NCBI GenBank assembly: GCA_000004985.1
Contig: GG738866.1
Origin: Naegleria gruberi
Taxonomy: Eukaryota
Direction: 5' to 3' (one strand)
Length of the DNA stretch: 64,000 nt
Part shown: positions 10,614 to 42,555 of the stretch, in pieces
Position numbering within the stretch: position 1 is the first letter of the stretch
Layout: each line of letters opens with the position of its first letter
Notes under the pieces: model-generated
Told to the model about the DNA's origin: nothing
What the model saw: the letters and a program-made list of their open reading frames with translations, nothing else
Database searches by the model: none
Position numbers and translations under genes: made by a program

Positions 10614-11690
10614 ATGTTAGCTTCATCATCTATCGTGGTGGATCCTTCGGGAAAGTGCAGTTTAGCCTTTAAACAATTGAGAGATGTTCCATCACAAATG
10701 GTTTTCCAAGCAATGGCCCCTAAAATCATTGAATTGGATTTATCACATAATAATTTAACTGATTTATCGGATAATGTTTTGTGTTTGGAGAATTTAACGA
10801 GTTTAGTACTTGATCATAATCGGATACATTCTGCTTCTACTTTTAATTCAGGAAAACCCCTTCCGAAAATTACATTATTGTAAGTGTGTGTGTGGATCAC
10901 ATCATTGGAAATAATTGAAAATATTTAAATATTAAATTGATGAATAATTAAATACTTAAGATGGGTCAATTCAAACAAAATTAAAGATTTAAAACAATTT
11001 GTAGAAAAGGTTGCCTATCATTTTCCTAATTTAAAGATATTTTCCATGTTGAAGAATGAAGCTTGTCCAAACTTTTTCACTGGTGGATCTGCAGAGGAAT
11101 ATGAACAATATAGATTGTTTGTGATTAGTAGATTGAATAATTTAACAGTATTGGATTCATCAACAGTTACAAAATCTGAGAGAGAAATTGCAAAGAAAAT
11201 GTATGGAAGTCCAGATGCAGTTCCGAGCTATATCAAAGTTCAACAACAAGTTAAATTGGAGGAAGCTGAACAAGCAAGATCAAAAACCATAGCTCAACAG
11301 CAACAACCATCGAGTAATCGTCCTAATTTACCATCACTTGGGTTGCAACAAAATAGAGCTCCACCCAATTCACAACCTTCATTCAATTTACCAAGTATTG
11401 ATAATTTACAATCACGTCAATTTGTTACTACATCATTTAATAATAATGGATATTACAATAATAGTAATAATACTCAATATGATCCATATAATCAAGGAGG
11501 ATATAATGTACCATTAGCTTATTCACAACCAACTAATCTAGTTCAAAATCCACAATTTATTTCACCTCAACCACCAATGCCTCCTTCTCAAGGAGGTATG
11601 CAACTTCCTTCCTTAGATTCACTTGCACAACCTAATACCTCTGGCTATCAACTTCCAAATCAATTCAACCAATATGGATATTACAAGTAA
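10614..11690 (+). CDS. Leucine-rich-repeat protein with an LRRcap-like region and a P/Q/N-rich tail. Exons 10614..10879 and 10961..11690 (81-nt intron).
   Basis: LDLSHNNLTDLSDNVLCLENLTSLVLDHNRI..., then ...FPNLKIFSMLKNEACPNFF..YRLFVISRLNNLTVLD (LRRcap-like), then QQQPSSNRPNLPSLGLQQ... low complexity. Confidence 0.6.
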
Positions 11691-13218: not shown

Positions 13219-14220
13219 TTGGTCAACCAATATTTTCAAAAACAAATGCAACAAGAAACATTAGTGCAGCTCCAGTTAGATGAAGCATTACAATCCAATT
13301 TACTCTCCACTAAAATCAGAGACATTCCCCACCATCTCAAACATGAAATAATCATTGCTCCGATCATCTCCGCCGAACAATTAAAGGAAACCATTAAATT
13401 TCTCGATACAAGACGTGATTGGTTTACCATTCTCAAATTTATGAACGAACACAATACAGGATATAATCCATTCTACAATGTTTCCATCAGTGCATTGGGA
13501 TTTAAATATTCACTTAGTTGGTGCTATAATTTATTAGAAATTGCCTCCAATTTGGGAAAGGAATTGAAATTTGATACAAATTTTATATTTCAAATAGTTG
13601 GGATAATTCCTGGATTTATTTATAATAATTCGAATGATGTTATTAGAAACGATAGAGAAGTTGTGTTGAGATCTGTTAAGAGATTGGGTTCCATGCTTGG
13701 TGTTGCTTCTGATAGATTGAAAGATGACAGAGAAATAGTAATAACAGCTGTCAAGCAAGATGGTGAAAGTTTACGCTATGCAAATGAAAGATTTAGGAGT
13801 GATAGAGAAATAGTCCTAGCAGCTGTCAAAACTGCTGGTTTGGCATATGTTCATGAATCATTAAGGAATGACAGAGAAATTGTTGAGCTGGCAATTTCAC
13901 ATTGTGGATCATTTCTATCAGGTGCAAGTGAGGAAATGAAAAAAGATAGAGAAATTGTAATGAAAGCCATTTCGACAAGTTCACAAGGATGTGCATTTCA
14001 ATATGTGAGTCGAGAATTAAAGCTCGATAAGAAATTTGTTTTACAAGTTCTCAGAAAAACTGAGGGACAAGCTCTTTGTTATGTGAGTGAAGAATTAATT
14101 AAGGATAAGGAATTTCTTGTTGAAATATTGAAAGTTATTGGGACATCTTTCACGAATACATATGTTATTGGGAGAATTATTAAGGATGATAGAGATTTGA
14201 TATTATTAATTGCTAAATAA
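13219..14220 (+). CDS. DUF4116-type repeat protein (tandem DREIV...L.YA repeats). The repeat series continues in frame for 79 more codons beyond a single TAA at 14218..14220.
   Basis: Repeated units: DREVVLRSVKRLGSMLGVASDRLKDDREIVITAVKQDGESLRYANERFRSDREIVLAAVKTAGLAYVHESLRNDREIVELAI... Downstream in the same frame: DGFIIKYINTELKKDKDIAFEAVSQNVNVFQHIDKSLKDDKEFVLKLAKK..., ending at 14457. Confidence 0.6.
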   Translation: MVNQYFQKQMQQETLVQLQLDEALQSNLLSTKIRDIPHHLKHEIIIAPIISAEQLKETIKFLDTRRDWFTILKFMNEHNTGYNPFYNVSISALGFKYSLSWCYNLLEIASNLGKELKFDTNFIFQIVGIIPGFIYNNSNDVIRNDREVVLRSVKRLGSMLGVASDRLKDDREIVITAVKQDGESLRYANERFRSDREIVLAAVKTAGLAYVHESLRNDREIVELAISHCGSFLSGASEEMKKDREIVMKAISTSSQGCAFQYVSRELKLDKKFVLQVLRKTEGQALCYVSEELIKDKEFLVEILKVIGTSFTNTYVIGRIIKDDRDLILLIAK

Positions 14221-16184: not shown

Positions 16185-17044
16185 TCTTTTTTTAAACCTT
16201 TCTGGTCAACTTGAGAAGTGCCATAAAATTTAAGGCAAATTAAATTTGTTCTAATTTGTAATTTTGTGTTAATGTGCGAACTATTCTATTCGATTATTCT
16301 TTCGAATGGATCAAGAATGGTAATATTATTGAATGCCTCCAGTTATGGTCATTGAATTGATTGAAAGTGCCATGGAAAGTTTTGAATGTGTGCAGATCCA
16401 AAGTCCATTGTCGGGAAGGACGGCATGAGGAGAAAAGCACAGAATCATAATAACATGCATATGGATCTTCCTGTGTGTGTAATAATATTCAAATTAATTC
16501 GTTGGACAAGTAGCATAAATTATGCTTGTTGCCCAGTTGACATATTTGGCTTTTTTTAAAACCCAATGTGTCGCCAAATTTTCTAATATGGTCATATTTT
16601 GTGCTGGTCAAAGTCCAGAATAAGTGAGATCTGTATTGTGAGAAACAAACTGTGATCTTTTCTGGTATGTTAAATTAACAATGGCGAGATGCAAGGAATG
16701 CAATTAATACGAATCCTTTAGGATTCGATTGGATTCAATGAGAAACAGTTTTGAGAATTATTTGTAAATGAGTATACACTAACATGAAAGAATCAACCAA
16801 GAACTCATGATAAGTTCTTTAGATTAGAAAAGAATTGATAGCTACTTTGATTAGAATCAATTCAAGATGCAATGTTTATTACATTTACTTTGGAACTCTT
16901 GAAAGGTCTGCTGGACCGGCATAACTAAACGAGAGCAATGATAATAATTTGATAATATTAAAAAGGGCAGTGTCGATTAAATAAAATAATTTGAACAGAA
17001 AAATAATTCATGTTATCAGAATTATTGAGTAAAATTTAAAAAAC

Positions 17045-18298
17045 TTACACATCATCTTCAATGCCACATTCGTTGTGTCCTCTCAAAATTTTGAAAGTTC
17101 CTGTTTAATAATTAAAATAAAAATAAATTTTAAAAATTATTTAAAATTAAAAAAATTAAAAATATTAAATTAAAAATGTCATGAAGAAATACTTACCGTC
17201 AATACCCCAATCAGTTGACCAAGAGTTGGCAACCAACCAGTAATCAACACCACCTTCAACACCCCAACCAATAATCTTGATGGCGTGACCACCCAAGAAA
17301 GAACCAGTCTTGTGTGAGTAAACTCCAGACTTGTAGTTCATGAAATCTCTGTAATTATAATTATTTTAGACTCGAGTCAATTAGTCTTTAAAACTTACTG
17401 GTAAACACTGAAACCACCTTGGACTGGACCGTTAGTGTAAATTTCTTGTTGGATATCAGCAACTCTTTCCCAGAACATCCATGGAGAAATGTGAGAGAAT
17501 GACTTGGCATAGTAAAGTTGGGAGGAAATTGGAATGTTAGTACCATTACAGCTAAAAATCATGTTAAAAAGAGCTAATTAAAATGAAATGACTTACTTTG
17601 ATGGACAAGCTGGGACGTTACCACCACCAGAGACGTATGGCATACATGAGTCTGGGACGATACCCTTGTTCTTCATCCACCACCAAGCATTATCCAAATT
17701 ACCACCATCACATCCCATATCATTGTAGTCGCAAGAGACCATATCTTGAGGGGACAAAATGACGTCAACCTTTCCGTTAGAAGCAATACAGAATCTATCA
17801 GAGAGAGATTCAGAAGCAGAGACTATTGATCATGATATTTCACAAAATTTCACAAAATTACAACTTACAAGCCCAACAAGAACCACATTGTTCTTGATTT
17901 CTAATTGGGTGAATACACTTGCCCCATTGTTGTCTAGAATCAAAGTTAGTTGGGAGACCAAGAGTCTTGAATTGCTTGGAAGCTTCTTCAACACCAACAG
18001 ACTTGACAGCGGAAGCCTTAGCTTCATTGTAGTGCTTGATAGTAGTCATTTGTTCTTCAGAGTATCTAACTTGACCTTCCTTCTTGGCAAAACCCAACAA
18101 TCTCTTCATTTCAGCAACGGTCTTACCAGCCAAATTTCTATTGACACCAGCCTTCCAAGTAGAAGATGGATCACTATTAATTTCGTTAATCATCTTAAAG
18201 TTAATAGCCATGGTTTCATGGTCTTCAGCAGTGATTGGAGCGCAATAAACTGCGGCAGCCAAACACAACAAGAGTGTAGCGATAAACAAGCTCTTCAT
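17045..18298 (-). CDS. Cathepsin B-like papain-family cysteine protease. Five exons: 17869..18298, 17597..17822, 17398..17551, 17197..17347, 17045..17100 (introns 46, 45, 50, 96 nt).
   Basis: Signal peptide, [34 protein letters not shown] (catalytic Cys), occluding-loop region [25 protein letters not shown] (catalytic His), [22 protein letters not shown]. Every junction has a GTAAGT donor and AG acceptor, and the exon phases are consistent. Confidence 0.85.
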
Positions 18299-18708
18299 TT
18301 TTTTTTTAAATTTTATTATTTTTTGAGCGCGGGATGAGGTTTTTATTAGGAACTGGAGGTTGAAAACTCCAACTTGACTCCGTCCTTCAACTAGTAGTTC
18401 ATTTCATTGATTAGTGGAGATGAAAATCAATCCTAGGAGTTGTTATTTCACATAATTCTACCCTTAGTTAAACTCAATTTTGACCCTATCCATATCTTTC
18501 ACTCTTCAGGAATAACATTATTTGTGGGAGTTTAAGTTGTGAGTTCATTGAGGGAGCTCTTCTTTACACAAAGAAATATTCGAAACATTTGTTTCCTCAA
18601 TTTATCAGGAATTCCACATACTGACTTGTATCTTCAAGGCGTTTCCACAGTTCGTTTCTTTTTGGCAATGAGTACATTAACCTTCAATTAACAGACAACT
18701 CAGGAGTA

Positions 18709-20807
18709 CTACCGGTATTTCTTTTTAAAAACAAATTTAATGTACTTGTGGGTAGAAAAGATAGTGGAAAGAGTACCATTTTCGACACATCGTTCTGTCA
18801 GTTCAAAGATATTACCACTTGATGGATGTATGTATTGATATGAATGAGGTTTTTTCATTACCTCAATTGGAATAAGTGCTGTCAATATCTTCATCAATGC
18901 TGAATAGTCGATCAGAGTACTTCTGTCAACTATTTCCAAATAGCATTTATCATGGAAGCATAATTCAATATCCACTCTATCTAAAACAGTTATCTCATCC
19001 ATGCAGGAGTCGATGGCACATCTGTCTTGCTCTCATTCCAAGATCTATTGCAAGTCCCTATTTTTGCAATAAAGGAATTTTGAATATTGCTCCTCACCTC
19101 TTCATTTGGACATCTAAGAAAGAAAGGATTTTTCAAGGTATATGTTATTTGAGAGCAACTTTCCCTCACATTACTGGTTTGAGAAGTTTTAGATCCAGTT
19201 AGATACCCAGAATAAAACATTAATTTCCAGAATAGTTCGTGTTTTCTCTTAATTTGTCCACAAGTAAATATTGTAACATCCACATCCAAACTCATGTCAA
19301 TTTCTATTTCTCCTCCGTTCTTCAAGGTTTCTAAATCATCAATCATTTCAATATCATCTGAAGATTCAATGTTTAATATCTGAACTAGCTCTCCAGTTGT
19401 ACCTGTTGAAATCCAATAATCAGAAATCTTTCCTAAAGCAAAATATGAGCATAATGACCACATGTTGAACACTAACTTGGAATTGCCATCAACATTGTAA
19501 CCGTTGTACCAATGATTGAGCTCTTTGAACTCAGTATCCAATCCTGGATAATCTTTACCTCTGATTCTTTTTAATGCTGAAGACAGTTCTGGTTGGGTAA
19601 TTCCAAACTCTGTCGTAAAAATCTCATCACTTTGTGTTGAATAATAACACAAGTTATTGAGTCCCGAAAGGTATCCCATATCTGTAAGTAGTACAATACC
19701 CATGAACAAGCTAAACTCAATAGACTCATTCCTTTTTAAAAAGGAAAATATATTTGCAAATATTTCAAAAATCTCTTTTCTAAAGCTCATATAAACACTT
19801 CCCATAAGAGGTGAGTCATATTCATCTATCAGTAAAACGACCTTAGATTGGTGATGCTTGTGTAGACATTCTATCAGGTGTTCCAAAGCGAATGTATCTG
19901 TTTGTTTTTGATATTCTAATAATTTCTGCTTGTCAGAATCTGTTAAGGTTTCACTATTCAATAAATAGCCAAACTCGTTGACTAGTTTAGTCAACAAATG
20001 GAGAATATTGCATCTAGTTTCTTCCAAGGAGTTAGATACTACACCATTAAATGAAATAAGGACTACAGGATATTTGTTCATGTGCAGTTTGCACAAGTCT
20101 TCCCTTTGCATAATCTTTAAATCTTTAAACAATTTCTCTGAAGTGGCAGTTTGGTTTATATCAAGGAAATATGATAACATGTTCAAATTGAATGATTTTC
20201 CAAACCTTCTTGGCCTCAATATTAGTGAGTGTTGTGACTTTCTCTTTTCTAATACATGCTCAATGAACAGTGACTTATCAAAAAGAAGCATTTCTTTGTC
20301 ACATGTATTGGAGAATGTAATTCCAGGATAACAACTAACAAGGGCAGAAAATGCAACAATTGAAATCTCATCACCCCATAGTAGTTCTTGTATAAGCAAT
20401 TCTTGCAATGAATCATCTCCCCTAATCGGCTTATTTTCATAACAATAACTCCATTGTTGGGATCTCTTATTCTGTTGGTATGCTACTTGTTCAAACAATG
20501 CAAAAGCAGCACCGAGTGGTCTTTTGGAACTCATCTTTGTAGTTATGGAAGTAGTTTTGTTGTTTGTTATTATTTTCACAATCACCACATCATCACAAGC
20601 AGTGGCGCTAACAATTATTTGTGTTTCACCAAAACTGTGCCAAGTGTCTTCATAATTCAACAAATGGCCACAAGTAAATTCGAAACCTGAGTATTCATCT
20701 AGAAGAGATCCGATCAAGCTATCTTCAGACATAGCCTTAACTGTGCTTTCTTGTTTGTCGAACAAAATGTGTACACGAACAGAGAGAGACATTTTTTTGT
20801 TGTACAA
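18709..20807 (-). CDS. Bacterial-type AAA-ATPase_like (PF09820) plus PD-(D/E)XK nuclease-like (DUF1703/PDDEXK_9) protein. Its two halves are in different frames, with a +1/-1 break near 19000.
   Basis: LILRPRRFGKSFNLNMLSYFLD (family-specific P-loop LxRPRRFGKS), ...NMWSLCSYFALGKISDYWISTGTTG, then in the downstream ORF (18709..19002) LEIVDRSTLIDYSALMKILTALIPIEVMKK...YIKFVFKKK (PD-(D/E)XK core D..E.K). Confidence 0.6.
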
Positions 20808-21053
20808 TCATGAAAGGAATTCGAATATGTGTAAGTATCAACACATTGACCTCTTCCAGAACATGCTAGTAATGTATTCATAATTGTTCAAATATGTTTC
20901 AATTTCATTAATGATACTAAGGTGAGTTATCAATATCTTAATAATCAAGTAACACTTCTGTTGATAATTGGATTCTATTCGGGAGGATGGAGTTAGAAAT
21001 ATGCAATGACAATAAAATATTTTATTGTATTGAATGAAAAGCAACAAATCTAA

Positions 21054-22013
21054 TTATTCCTCATTTTCTTCTTCCTCTTCATTCTCGTCATTCTCTTCAT
21101 CACTGTCATTTGTTATTTTCACTTGTTTCAATAATGCAACAATATTATCGAATTTCTTACTCTCTGCAATTGTTATTGGTTTTTCATTATTGACTTTAGT
21201 ATAACCATATCCATCCCAATAACCTGAGTAGGTGTGCTTTCCCTTATTTACCTTAATTTTTGAATTTTCCAATAATAATTTGACAATTTCCTCATGTCCA
21301 TTCATACAAGCTCCATATAGTGGTGTAATATATCCCAAATTAATTTCAATTTCTTGTTTTGATAGCAATAATTTCACAATATCAACAAATCCATTCAAAC
21401 ATGCAATAAAGAGTGGTGTTACTCCACTGAAACAACTCTCAAACTCTGCATGATCTTCGCCAACCGATTCTTCAAGTCTTCCCTTTGAAATATCAAACTT
21501 TTTACTCTCTGAAAGCAATAGTTCAACAATTTCCAAATCACCCTTTTCACATGCTACAAACAATGGTGTAGTTGTTCCCAAATCAATTTTCACACCCTTT
21601 GAAAGAAGCAATTTCACCATCTCTCCATTGCCCAATTCACATGCCATACACAATGTTGTTCTCTTATCAATCAATCTATTAGTGGAGTAATCTATTTCAT
21701 ACTCTTCTTCATCATCAATACTCTTTTCATTCTCATCTGCAACAAACAACCAATCGAGAAGATATAAATCAGCAGCATCAACCAAAACATTCATCATTTC
21801 AGGATTCTTTTCTGATGCAACAATCTTGCCAAACTTGTCTTGGTTTTCAATGATCCATTCTTTGAATACTCCCTTATCTGCTTTCAACAAATCGGAAGCA
21901 TTGCTATGTGCAATCAAGTAGTCAAAATCTACATCTTCTTCTTGATTGGATGGTTTAGTTTTCTTCCTTGGTGGTGAAAGATTTTCGTCCTTGCTGTGAT
22001 CAGATGAAGACAT
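21054..22013 (-). CDS. Ankyrin-repeat protein with an acidic C-terminal tail.
   Basis: Four or more ANK repeats: TPLFVACEKGDLEIVELLL, TPLFIACLNGFVDIVKLLL, TPLYGACMNGHEEIVKLLL. C-terminal DSDEENDENEEEEENEE. Confidence 0.7.
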   Translation of the reverse strand: MSSSDHSKDENLSPPRKKTKPSNQEEDVDFDYLIAHSNASDLLKADKGVFKEWIIENQDKFGKIVASEKNPEMMNVLVDAADLYLLDWLFVADENEKSIDDEEEYEIDYSTNRLIDKRTTLCMACELGNGEMVKLLLSKGVKIDLGTTTPLFVACEKGDLEIVELLLSESKKFDISKGRLEESVGEDHAEFESCFSGVTPLFIACLNGFVDIVKLLLSKQEIEINLGYITPLYGACMNGHEEIVKLLLENSKIKVNKGKHTYSGYWDGYGYTKVNNEKPITIAESKKFDNIVALLKQVKITNDSDEENDENEEEEENEE

Positions 22014-39900: not shown

Positions 39901-41060
39901 TTACCAATTGTTATTTGGTGGTCCATTATGACCAATATCTCTTCTTCCCATGTTTCCACTACGATCATTTGGTCCACTATAGTGAGGAGGGCTACCACCA
40001 GGATGAGCATCTTGGTGTGGAGGACTTCTATAACCGCCTCTATAACCACCTCTGTTGTAATTTCCTTGTGGAGGAACTCTGCTATATGGTTCATATCTTT
40101 GTTGAGAACCATAGTATGGTCTGTCTCTTCCATTGTTGTGTGGATAATTGGAAGGAGGATATGGGTCGTGATGGTGGTGATATGGTGGTGGTCCATTGCT
40201 TGGTGGTGGTCCATCCATTGGTCCCATTCCGTATGGTGGTGGGTTATAAGGTGGTGATCTTCCTCCATTACCTCCATAAGGTGGATGATGCATACCTCCA
40301 CGATGATAGCCTCCTCTTCTCATTGGTGGTCCATTGTTGAATCTTCCTCCATTGTTAAATCCTCCGCCTCTTCTTGGTCCTCCTCTAAATCTTCCTCTCA
40401 TTCCTCCTCTACTTGGTGGTATTCCCAACTCCTTTTTCTTATCTTTTCCTATATCATAGTCAACTCTCCACGATAAACCTTCTTGAGGTGGTTGATCTCC
40501 AATAAATCCGTCCTTGACAGCTAGAAATGCCTTCTCCGCAGCGTCTCTTTCATGGAATGTAATAAAACAATATCCTAAAGGCTGACCGCCTGAATATCCG
40601 ACCTTAACATCAACAACTTCTCCAAAGCGTTCGAAAACTCTTCGTAAATCCATATCATTGTAGTGAAATGGTATTCCTCCCAACCACAATGTTTTAGTTT
40701 CCTTTTTGGCTTGATCCAAAACTTCCTCGCTACAAGTCCGTCACCAAATAATTATACAAAATAAATTATTAGTAAATAAATATAAAATTATGAGAGGAAA
40801 CGTCTTCATCTTCTTACCTTGGTGGTGGTCTGGCATCAAAATCTTGTGGAGGTTGATCACCGTATGGTTGTCTCATATCAGGTGGTGAAAGTGGTACACC
40901 TCCAGGAACCATATCCATTGGTGGATGTCCATGATATGGTGGAGGAACTAACCCTCCAGGTGAAAGTGGTGGTGGTGATCTTCCGTGTTGTTGGCTCTGA
41001 AAATTTCCAACGAAAGAAGCATATTATCAGCATTAGAATCATTCAAATTGCACTTACCAT
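39901..41060 (-). CDS. RRM-domain RNA-binding protein with a P-rich N-terminus and RGG/PY-rich C-terminus. Exons 41058..41060 (ATG only, tentative), 40818..40996, 39901..40729.
   Basis: RRM: TLWLGGIPFHYNDMDLRRVFERFGEVVDVKVGY...GYCFITFHERDAAEKAF. C-terminal RGGMRGRFRGGPRRGGGFNNGGRF...PPYGG... Intron 2 (40730..40817, GTAAGA..AG) is solid. The ATG-only first exon followed by a GTAAGT..TTTTCAG intron (40997..41057) is an inference. Confidence 0.6.
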
Positions 41061-42482: not shown

Positions 42483-42555
42483 TGCCGACACCAGGGATCG
42501 AACCAGGGACCTTAAGATCTTCAGTCTTACGCTCTCCCAACTGAGCTATGTCGGC
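42483..42555 (-). tRNA. tRNA-Phe (anticodon GAA), 73 nt, no intron.
   Basis: The minus-strand sequence GCCGACATAGCTCAGTTGGGAGAGCGTAAGACTGAAGATCTTAAGGTCCCTGGTTCGATCCCTGGTGTCGGCA folds into a cloverleaf: 7-bp acceptor stem, D-arm AGCTCAGTTGGGAGAGC, anticodon loop CTGAAGA, T-loop TTCGATC. One U:U mismatch in the T-stem. Confidence 0.85.

What the first reader, a model, noticed from the sequence alone, without database searches (positions are those of the whole stretch)
18709..20807. Bacterial-type AAA-ATPase_like + PD-(D/E)XK (DUF1703) gene in a eukaryotic context, split by a frame break
Seen in sequence: the signature loop LILRPRRFGKS and the downstream ...YWISTGTTG... and D..E.K core match the two-domain family (Pfam AAA-ATPase_like PF09820 + PDDEXK_9). 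That family is overwhelmingly bacterial (Bacteroidetes, Firmicutes). Here it sits among intron-containing eukaryotic genes, has no intron itself, and shows local AT-rich codon usage. This suggests an old horizontal acquisition that is either still intact, with a sequencing error near 19000, or is decaying into a pseudogene. Its function is unknown even in bacteria, where a nuclease/ATPase role is assumed.
Basis: partly seen in the sequence, partly recalled or inferred. Interest (0 to 1): 0.7.

Follow-up and report, generated by a model that had tools for sequence, protein, structure and literature searches.

The report
Bacterial-derived ATPase gene in Naegleria
This is a real gene of the amoeba Naegleria gruberi, taken long ago from bacteria; it keeps the bacterial ATPase engine but has no recognisable nuclease part, and its last ~95 codons sit out of frame in the reference assembly.

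Summary
The window is Naegleria gruberi nuclear DNA. ORF 18990-20792(-) is 100% identical to the NCBI 600-aa 'predicted protein'. It carries Pfam AAA-ATPase_like (PF09820, 2e-31), with the family's Walker A (RPRRFGKS) and Walker B (LLIDEYD) intact.

The PD-(D/E)XK (PDDEXK_9) half of the finding is not confirmed. Pfam, a custom HMM of 112 bacterial homologs run on all frames, and hhalign find nothing past the IPNxEV motif. A Fusobacterium control hits PDDEXK_9 at 3e-24.

The frame break is real. The tail (19026-18709) lies in the -1 frame, still looks coding, and weakly matches the contiguous tail of the only eukaryotic ortholog, in Willaertia magna. It is not a canonical intron. One inserted base anywhere in 19026-18993 restores a 694-aa ORF.

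The two amoeba proteins group together (200/200 NJ bootstraps) among thousands of bacterial, phage and plasmid homologs at 27-35% identity. They share weakly similar N- and C-terminal regions that match nothing in the databases searched. GC3 equals that of neighbouring genes. This points to one old horizontal transfer, after which the new ends arose and the nuclease became unrecognisable.

Function is inferred only: an ATP-driven switch or remodeller rather than a nuclease. Modest interest; a new variant of a known family.

The parts
18990..20792 (-). Annotated CDS (600 aa + stop TAA at 18990-18992) of the N. gruberi 'predicted protein'.
   Evidence: 100% identity and 100% coverage to NCBI/UniRef N. 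gruberi protein P0001 on a 469-kb contig; ORF list.
20313..20792 (-). N-terminal extension of ~160 aa, absent from all bacterial homologs. It is weakly similar to the W. magna N-terminus.
   Evidence: Bacterial proteins start at alignment column ~165. Smith-Waterman against W. magna: z=4.1, 7/2000 shuffles. Exhaustive phmmer over 1.84 billion representatives finds only itself plus one borderline repeat protein. AF2 pLDDT <50.
19683..20318 (-). AAA-ATPase_like (PF09820) domain.
   Evidence: Pfam E=2e-31 / 2.7e-31, profile positions 6-196 of 201.
20193..20216 (-). Family-specific Walker A motif, RPRRFGKS.
   Evidence: Read from the sequence. R193-K199 are invariant across 120 aligned sequences. 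The motif is defined for DUF1703 in PMC1913061.
19815..19835 (-). Walker B motif, LLIDEYD.
   Evidence: Sequence. L321 I322 D323 E324 Y325 are invariant and D326 is >=90% conserved. DEYD is the DUF1703 Walker B per PMC1913061.
19029..19682 (-). Family-specific middle region. It holds the motifs GYLSGLNN, WYNGY, FNMWS, YWISTG, FWKLMFYSGYL and PNEEV, and it is the last stretch alignable to bacteria.
   Evidence: The bacterial HMM aligns through position 408-410 of 547. 24 of 36 conserved middle-region columns are retained.
18982..19026 (-). Frame-break zone. A 1-nt insertion anywhere in 19026-18993 restores one ORF. Alternatively, removing the 41 nt at 19022-18982 restores the frame and gives a gapless 40-aa match in length to W. 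magna.
   Evidence: The zone has no GTAAGT-type donor, no copy elsewhere in the window and no explanatory repeat.
18709..19026 (-). C-terminal tail in the -1 frame (ATG at 19002, stop at 18709-18711). It is not in the annotated protein but looks coding, and it matches nothing in the databases searched.
   Evidence: Codon log-likelihood is +0.09 in this frame and -0.86/-0.95 in the other two. An open run this long occurs in 6/5000 shuffles. Smith-Waterman against the W. magna tail: z=4.6, 3/2000 shuffles. No protein in the 5.8-billion collection matches it.

Best explanation
The feature is a genuine nuclear gene of Naegleria gruberi. It descends from a bacterial DUF1703-type AAA+ ATPase (Pfam AAA-ATPase_like).

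Shown:
- The ATPase module and the family-specific middle region are conserved, including the Walker A RPRRFGKS and the Walker B DEYD.
- The only eukaryotic relative found is an ortholog in Willaertia magna. It groups with the Naegleria protein and shares two weakly similar regions found in no other protein: ~135-160 aa at the N-terminus and ~100 aa at the C-terminus.
- The canonical PD-(D/E)XK nuclease domain is undetectable in both species.
- Codon composition equals that of neighbouring host genes.

Inferred history: one horizontal transfer from a bacterium, or from a phage or plasmid of one, into a common ancestor of Naegleria and Willaertia. The N-terminal extension was added afterwards, and the nuclease was eroded or replaced.

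Inferred mechanism: the protein still binds and hydrolyses ATP but no longer cuts nucleic acid. It would act as an ATP-driven switch, sensor or remodeller whose specificity lies in the new terminal regions.

In the reference assembly the last ~95 codons lie in the -1 frame after a break at about 19026-18982. The break is not a canonical intron. Because the tail still has coding character, the break is either a very recent or allelic mutation or a one-base assembly error.
For: Identity and context:
- 100% match to the N. gruberi predicted protein on a 469-kb contig.
- Flanked within 260-410 nt by an ankyrin gene and a five-intron cathepsin-B gene. The rest of the window is typically eukaryotic.

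Family:
- PF09820 at 2e-31. The bacterial HMM scores 288 bits over positions 12-410.
- Invariant Walker A and Walker B columns are kept.
- 54 of 81 (Naegleria) and 52 of 81 (Willaertia) conserved columns are retained in the ATPase + middle region. Bacterial leave-one-out retention is 0.91.

Nuclease absent: and 0/22 columns.

Transfer and age:
- 5705 homologs at E<=1e-5, nearly all bacterial or metagenomic. Best bacterial identity is ~31-35%, spread over many phyla.
- 193 IMG/VR viral contigs and a Fusobacterium plasmid carry the family.
- Ngru+Wmag are monophyletic in 200/200 NJ bootstraps.
- Shared N- and C-terminal regions: z=4.1 and z=4.6.
- GC3 is 0.318, within the host range.

Tail is coding.

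Not an intron:
- No GTAAG anywhere in the gene, while 5 of 5 neighbouring introns start GTAAGT.
- Every frame-restoring GT..AG pair I checked by hand from the list removes conserved coding sequence or runs into a stop.

One base restores a 694-aa ORF.
Against: - No expression, read-level or protein data were available, so the gene may be non-functional in this strain.
- The W. magna assembly also has a frame disruption, at a different site. Taken at face value, that could mean decay in both lineages.
- No ortholog appeared from other Naegleria species.
- Similarity of the N- and C-terminal regions between the two amoebae is weak: 24-27% identity, shuffle p about 0.002-0.004.
- AF2 models were low-confidence (pLDDT 54-55). 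The folds of the new regions are therefore unknown, and a degenerate nuclease fold is not excluded.
- The ATP-switch function is inference from motif retention only.
- The donor lineage is unresolved. The NJ sister is a Fusobacteriia MAG (193/200), but the branches are long and the sampling is thin.
Confidence: 0.7

Rival explanations
1. The gene is a decaying pseudogene. The transferred gene has lost its nuclease domain and is now accumulating frameshifts in both amoebae.
For: - The frame break in N. gruberi truncates the annotated product at 600 aa.
- W. magna has an independent frame shift, hidden by an artefactual 52-nt 'intron'.
- The nuclease domain is undetectable.
- No orthologs from other Naegleria species were retrieved.
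Against: - A 600-codon ORF stays open in a 34%-GC genome.
- About two-thirds of family-conserved columns, and all invariant ATPase motifs, are retained in both species.
- The tail beyond the break is still open (6/5000 shuffles) and has codon bias only in its own frame.
- Each break is repaired by a single base. In W. magna that base lies in a T5 homopolymer, a typical assembly-error site.
- At most one very recent lesion per lineage is therefore allowed.
Confidence: 0.2
2. The gene is an intact two-domain ATPase + PD-(D/E)XK nuclease, whose nuclease lies in the out-of-frame tail and is split only by a sequencing error.
For: - After removing 41 nt, the junction reads SWNESKTDRVDIEL...CYLEIV. 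This resembles the family's SNRESGxGRYDIxL...hhExK motifs.
- The tail looks coding.
Against: - The motif alignment scores -4.1 bits. Pfam finds nothing at E<=10, against 2.9e-24 for the control. hhalign gives 1.4%.
- The catalytic Lys position is Val in Naegleria, and Asp, Glu and Lys are all absent at the matching W. magna positions (read from the sequences).
- The ~50-aa helical linker and first core helix that precede the nuclease strands in bacteria have no counterpart.
Confidence: 0.08
3. The break is bridged biologically, either by a short non-canonical intron (the 41-nt segment 19022-18982) or by programmed -1 ribosomal frameshifting.
For: - Removing exactly 41 nt restores the frame and makes the Naegleria and Willaertia sequences equal in length (40 aa) between the KT and IP anchors.
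- The tail has been kept open.
Against: - The possible ends of the segment are GA..TA, AT..AG, TG..GA or GT..AT, never GT..AG.
- The local introns all begin GTAAGT and are 47 nt or longer.
- No slippery heptamer is visible at the junction.
- The W. magna sequence is contiguous there.
Confidence: 0.07
4. The region is bacterial contamination or a mis-assembled bacterial fragment.
For: The nearest relatives outside Heterolobosea are all bacterial, phage or plasmid.
Against: - The gene is embedded in a 469-kb N. gruberi contig, between intron-containing eukaryotic genes a few hundred bases away.
- GC and GC3 are identical to the neighbours.
- It is only ~33% identical to any bacterium.
- An ortholog sits inside a 410-kb W. 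magna contig among multi-exon genes.
Confidence: 0.01

Closest known systems
Bacterial DUF1703 proteins (Pfam AAA-ATPase_like PF09820 + PDDEXK_9 PF08011), e.g. the Fusobacterium 'AAA family ATPase' P0036. Described by Knizewski et al. 2007 (PMC1913061).
   Same: - The N-terminal AAA+ module, with the unusual Walker A RPRRFGK[ST] and Walker B DEYD.
- The helical/middle region, with the SGLNN, WY.GY, NPWS-like, YW.NT, W.L..GYL and IPN.E motifs.
- 31-35% identity over ~400 aa.
   Different: - No detectable PDDEXK_9 nuclease or preceding helical linker.
- An added ~160-aa N-terminal extension and a ~100-aa tail, neither found in any bacterial homolog.
- Encoded in a eukaryotic nucleus.
Willaertia magna hypothetical protein ABK040_006586 (KAL9654521.1; P0002).
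   Same: - Ortholog: 36% identity over 390 aa and 200/200 NJ support.
- Same architecture: N-terminal extension, ATPase, middle region and a non-nuclease tail.
   Different: - The tail is contiguous at the position where N. gruberi is broken.
- It has its own 1-nt frame shift at a T5 run near L001:11252, masked by an artefactual intron.
- No synteny within +-10 kb.
Bacterial-origin DUF1703 homolog in the Medea selfish element of the beetle Tribolium castaneum (Lorenzen et al. 2008, as cited in PMC6387759).
   Same: A precedent for a DUF1703-family gene of bacterial origin residing in a eukaryotic genome.
   Different: It is described as an intact DUF1703 homolog within a selfish element. The Naegleria gene lacks a detectable nuclease, is shared by two genera and lies among ordinary genes. 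No sequence comparison was made here.
Expanded DUF1703 paralog families in intracellular symbionts (Cardinium cCpun, Simkania, Rickettsia; PMC6387759).
   Same: The same family, with documented horizontal spread, plasmid carriage and association with bacteria that live inside eukaryotic cells. Legionella and Babeliaceae MAG homologs were also seen here.
   Different: Those are full ATPase+nuclease proteins, some predicted to be secreted. None is specifically close to the amoeba genes (27-35% identity).
RADAR RdrA ATPase, listed under PF09820 in a review of defence-system domains (PMC10952713).
   Same: Said to share the PF09820 ATPase domain and to use ATP hydrolysis to activate a partner effector. 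This is a possible functional analogy for a nuclease-less ATPase.
   Different: No PADLOC model, including RdrA, matches the Naegleria protein or two bacterial relatives at E<=0.01. No PDB chain matches the family profile at E<=10. Membership is therefore not supported.

Membership tests
DUF1703 family (AAA-ATPase_like + PDDEXK_9) | Significant match to Pfam PF09820 above the gathering threshold | tested here: met
   109.8 bits against a cut-off of 26.1, E=2e-31. W. magna scores 103.7 bits.
DUF1703 family (AAA-ATPase_like + PDDEXK_9) | Non-canonical Walker A RPRRFGK[ST] and Walker B DEYD (PMC1913061) | tested here: met
   RPRRFGKS at aa 193-200 and LLIDEYD at aa 320-326. These columns are invariant in 120 sequences.
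DUF1703 family (AAA-ATPase_like + PDDEXK_9) | Family-specific middle/helical region between the ATPase and the nuclease | tested here: met
   The bacterial full-length HMM aligns through position 408-410 of 547. 24 of 36 conserved columns are kept.
DUF1703 family (AAA-ATPase_like + PDDEXK_9) | C-terminal PDDEXK_9 (PF08011) domain | tested here: not met
   No hit at E<=10 on frame-joined products, against 2.9e-24 for the control. The custom nuclease HMM gives negative scores in all frames. hhalign gives 1.4%.
DUF1703 family (AAA-ATPase_like + PDDEXK_9) | Catalytic Asp ... Glu-x-Lys triad plus the motif I acidic residue and motif IV Gln | tested here: not met
   0 of 22 conserved linker+nuclease columns are alignable. 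The best motif-like stretch (RVDIEL...YLEIV) has Val at the Lys position and is non-significant. In W. magna all three residues are absent at the matching positions.
RADAR RdrA-type defence ATPase | Match to PADLOC RdrA or any other defence-system model | tested here: not met
   No PADLOC family at E<=0.01 for P0001, P0036 or P0003.
Spliceosomal intron at the frame break | GT..AG boundaries with the local GTAAGT donor consensus, removing a length that restores the frame without deleting conserved codons | tested here: not met
   No GTAAG occurs in 18600-20900, while 5 of 5 neighbouring introns start GTAAGT. The frame-restoring GT..AG candidates, checked by hand, delete the conserved PN.EV region or hit stops.
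Horizontally acquired gene (bacterium to eukaryote) | Patchy eukaryotic distribution within a large prokaryotic family, plus physical linkage to host genes | tested here: met
   Two heterolobosean proteins against 5705 mostly bacterial or metagenomic hits. More than 580 GTDB loci across many phyla. Flanking intron-bearing genes. The donor lineage and the absence from other eukaryotes were only partly testable.
Active, expressed gene in N. gruberi | Transcript or protein evidence across the break | not testable with these tools
   No read or RNA-seq data were available. ORF2 is absent from the protein collection, and exact look-up of P0001 found no contig.

The most novel reading that the evidence does not exclude
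Vahlkampfiid amoebae have domesticated a phage- or plasmid-borne bacterial conflict ATPase. They stripped off its nuclease and grafted new N- and C-terminal domains. The result would be a eukaryote-specific ATP-gated sensor or effector, for example in defence against the intracellular bacteria or giant viruses that infect these amoebae. On this reading the -1 tail is read through in vivo, or is polymorphic between haplotypes.
Probability: 0.12. Interest if true: 0.55.

Novelty: new variant of a known kind. Interest (0 to 1): 0.3.

Why it matters
DUF1703 ATPase-nucleases are abundant in gut, oral and symbiotic bacteria and on their phages and plasmids, yet nobody knows what they do. This copy has apparently been kept in two amoeba genera while losing the nuclease. 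That suggests the ATPase plus middle module has a function of its own. It also gives a tractable eukaryotic model, since Naegleria gruberi can be cultured, in which to ask what that module binds.

The locus adds a dated example of bacterium-to-amoeba gene transfer followed by domain remodelling. On the practical side, it flags two annotation problems: a truncated N. gruberi model and an artefactual intron in the W. magna model.

The gene itself is already in public databases with the Pfam domain attached. Horizontal transfers into Naegleria are not rare, and there is no functional evidence. The finding is useful but not surprising.

Tried and rejected
1. Canonical intron models across the break. 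I enumerated all GT..AG pairs of 30-150 nt and checked the frame-restoring ones by hand. Each removes the conserved PN.EV region or meets a stop, and none has the local GTAAGT donor. The 68-nt candidate 19097-19030 was rejected because its 'intron' aligns as coding sequence to the bacterial HMM.
2. Structure route. AF2 of W. magna P0002 and of N. gruberi P0001 gave pLDDT 55 and 54, with the N-terminal region and the tail below 50. Foldseek against PDB gave nothing below E=0.1, only weak AAA ATPase hits. The structures are uninformative for the new regions.
3. PDB by sequence and by profile: no relative.
4. PADLOC defence models: none.
5. Origin of the N-terminal extension. The alignment-mode word search found nothing and did not even recover the query proteins, so it is a weak negative. 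Exhaustive phmmer found only the query itself and one borderline repeat protein.
6. Origin of the tail: no protein in the collection matches it.
7. Environmental relatives. Two degenerate-motif scans of JGI metagenomes (ILRPRRFGKSFNL and D.GYLSGLNNL..Y) returned nothing.
8. Giant-virus or phage intermediary. IMG/VR hits are ordinary 25-32% relatives without the amoeba-specific regions.
9. Repeat or duplication origin of the 41-nt segment: none found.
10. Synteny between the Naegleria and Willaertia loci: none.
11. Exact-sequence look-up of P0001 for other assemblies: not on record.
Full report
WHAT THE WINDOW IS. The 600-codon minus-strand ORF from the ATG at 20792 to the stop at 18990-18992 is 100% identical, over its full length, to the NCBI/UniRef 'predicted protein [Naegleria gruberi]' on a 469-kb contig. 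GC content is a flat 30-37% across the window.

The gene's neighbours are ordinary eukaryotic genes:
- An ankyrin-repeat gene ends 260 nt upstream.
- A cathepsin-B-like gene starts 410 nt downstream of the tail. It has five introns, each beginning GTAAGT.
- Further out lie genes for lipin/LNS2, cytochrome P450, adenylate cyclase, LRR, MBOAT, RRM, nucleoside hydrolase and DUF4116 proteins, plus a tRNA-Phe.

Contamination is therefore excluded.

CHECKING THE OBSERVATION. The ATPase half is solid.
- Pfam AAA-ATPase_like (PF09820) matches at E=2e-31, 109.8 bits against a cut-off of 26.1.
- A profile I built from 112 full-length bacterial homologs scores 288 bits.
- The family's peculiar Walker A (RPRRFGKS, 20193-20216) and Walker B (LLIDEYD, 19815-19835) are present. 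They fall on columns that are invariant in a 120-sequence alignment. Both motifs are defined for DUF1703 in PMC1913061.

The nuclease half is not there.
- I joined the two frames in two ways: a simple frame shift, and removal of 41 nt.
- Pfam finds no PDDEXK_9 on these products even at E<=10. A Fusobacterium control scores 2.9e-24 in the same run.
- My bacterial HMM aligns only to model positions 12-408 of 547 in any of the three gene-strand frames. A nuclease-only HMM gives negative scores.
- hhalign of the two amoeba tails against the bacterial linker+nuclease profile gives 1.4% probability, and covers only the shared IPNxEV motif.
- Among 31 diverse bacterial and viral homologs, 22 linker+nuclease columns are conserved at >=80%. 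None of them is alignable in either amoeba. In the ATPase + middle region, 54 of 81 (Naegleria) and 52 of 81 (Willaertia) such columns are retained.
- One stretch is suggestive: SWNESKTD/RVDIEL...CYLEIV resembles SNRESGxGRYDIxL...hhExK. It scores -4.1 bits, has Val where the catalytic Lys should be, and is not conserved in Willaertia.

The claim of locally AT-rich codon usage also fails. GC3 is 0.318, inside the 0.21-0.34 range of 26 other long ORFs in the window.

THE FRAME BREAK. It is real in the assembly. After the TAA at 18990-18992, the -1 frame is open from 19026 to 18709. Three results indicate that this tail is, or very recently was, coding:
- An open run of this length occurs in 6 of 5000 shuffles.
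- The codon-usage log-likelihood is positive only in that frame: +0.09 against -0.86 and -0.95. ORF1 shows the same pattern, and the intergenic DNA downstream does not.
- It aligns co-linearly with the tail of the Willaertia protein. The Smith-Waterman score is 50, against 27.6+-4.8 for shuffles (3 of 2000 reach it).

It is not a normal intron.
- The gene contains no GTAAG at all.
- I checked by hand the frame-restoring GT..AG pairs listed. Each either deletes the conserved PN.EV segment or runs into a stop.
- Removing exactly 41 nt (19022-18982) restores the frame. It also makes the Naegleria and Willaertia sequences the same length (40 aa) between two anchors. However, the segment's possible ends are non-canonical. 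It is also unique in the window and not a duplication.
- A single inserted base anywhere in 19026-18993 gives one 694-aa ORF.

I cannot distinguish an assembly error from a recent or allelic mutation without reads.

THE WILLAERTIA ORTHOLOG. The best non-self hit is a Willaertia magna hypothetical protein: 225 bits, against 186 bits or less for the best bacterial hits. Its locus lies in a 410-kb contig among multi-exon genes.

The annotated 52-nt 'intron' in this gene model is an artefact. It deletes GYDINGQRKILFNVWSLS, which aligns to the Naegleria GYNVDGNSKLVFNMWSLCS. The real cause is a one-base frame shift at a T5 run, and dropping one T gives an uninterrupted 642-aa ORF.

The corrected protein has the same layout as the Naegleria one: an N-terminal extension, the ATPase, the middle region and a non-nuclease tail. 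The N-terminal extensions are weakly but significantly similar (z=4.1). There is no synteny within +-10 kb.

ORIGIN.
- The family is huge in prokaryotes. There are 5705 hits at E<=1e-5, nearly all bacterial or metagenomic.
They span Lachnospiraceae, Fusobacteria, Gamma- and Alphaproteobacteria, Bacteroidota, Polyangiaceae and Calditrichaceae. They also include amoeba-associated Legionella and Babeliaceae MAGs and a Fusobacterium plasmid.
- 193 IMG/VR viral contigs carry the family.
- All of these are only 25-35% identical to the Naegleria protein. None covers its N-terminal extension or its tail.
- In a neighbour-joining tree (33 taxa, 392 columns), Naegleria and Willaertia are sisters in 200 of 200 bootstraps. 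Their nearest neighbour is a sequence from a Fusobacteriia MAG (UBA1095), with 193 of 200 support. Given the long branches and thin sampling, I treat the donor as unresolved.

Four observations fit one acquisition before the two genera split, followed by a long period of purifying selection on the ATPase + middle module:
- Naegleria and Willaertia group together.
- They share the same extra N- and C-terminal regions.
- Codon composition is fully host-like.
- The family's invariant residues are retained.

No other Naegleria species appeared among the hits. That suggests loss elsewhere or missing annotation, and I could not test it at the genome level.

THE NEW REGIONS. The 160-aa N-terminal extension has no detectable relative. 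An exhaustive phmmer search of 1.84 billion representatives found only the query itself and one borderline repeat protein. The tail matches no protein in the 5.8-billion collection. Both AF2 models are low-confidence in these regions, and Foldseek returned nothing usable. The family has no sequence-detectable solved structure and no PADLOC defence model.

HOW IT MOST LIKELY WORKS. Three things are shown: an intact nucleotide-binding module, an intact family-specific middle region, and no recognisable nuclease. From these I infer that the protein still cycles ATP but has lost DNA or RNA cleavage. It would then act as an ATP-dependent switch, sensor or remodeller, with partner or target specificity residing in the terminal regions unique to these two amoebae.

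In bacteria the parent family is predicted to be an ATP-controlled PD-(D/E)XK nuclease (PMC1913061). It spreads horizontally, sits on plasmids and prophages, and expands in intracellular symbionts (PMC6387759). That fits a role in genetic conflict, but the role is untested.

A bacterial-origin DUF1703 gene in a eukaryote has a precedent in the Tribolium Medea element (cited in PMC6387759).

VERDICT. The horizontal-transfer interpretation is supported and sharpened. The transfer is old, shared with Willaertia, and followed by domain remodelling.

The locus is a new architectural variant of a known family. The gene is already in databases and has no functional data. Interest is 0.3.

Noticed in passing
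L001:10001-11930 (Willaertia magna JBEGDK010000040.1), site about 11246-11266: The W. magna gene model KAL9654521.1 uses a 52-nt 'intron' that deletes conserved codons (GYDINGQRKILFNVWSLS). The real cause is a 1-nt frame shift at a T5 homopolymer. Dropping one T gives a clean 642-aa ORF, so this is probably an assembly indel.
   Followed up: yes
window 16930-18298 (-): A cathepsin-B-like cysteine protease gene (Propeptide_C1 + Peptidase_C1) with five short introns, all starting GTAAGT. I used it as the local splice-site reference.
   Followed up: partly
window 21054-22013 (-): An intronless ankyrin-repeat gene with an acidic C-terminal tail lies immediately upstream of the transferred ATPase gene. 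Ankyrin genes are also expanded in the symbionts that carry DUF1703 (PMC6387759). Whether this gene was co-acquired was not tested, and W. magna has no ankyrin neighbour.
   Followed up: no
window 13246-14217 (+) and 58714-60681 (-): Two genes encode multiple DUF4116 repeats (7 and 5 matched stretches; E=2e-76 and 1e-51). This repeat family of unknown function occurs twice in 64 kb.
   Followed up: no
window 39904-40653 (-), within 40001-41000: A local GC peak (0.43, against ~0.33 elsewhere) coincides with an RRM-domain ORF whose overall GC is 0.44 but whose GC3 is only 0.22. This suggests a compositionally biased, possibly low-complexity, coding region.
   Followed up: no
window 42483-42555 (-): A single tRNA-Phe (GAA) gene, the only Rfam or ARAGORN hit in the window.
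   Followed up: yes
L138, L145, L100 (GTDB loci), L002-L081 (IMG/VR): DUF1703 homologs occur in amoeba-associated bacteria (a Legionella sp. MAG and a Candidatus Babeliaceae MAG), on Fusobacterium plasmid pSB021B, and on at least 193 viral or prophage contigs. These are plausible vehicles for transfer into amoebae, but none is specifically close (27-32% identity).
   Followed up: partly
P0137 (3263 aa), matched by window 20538-20651 (aa 48-85 of the N-terminal extension): A borderline hit (E=9e-4, 21 matched stretches) of the beta-strand-rich segment of the N-terminal extension to a giant repeat protein. It is probably compositional.
   Followed up: no
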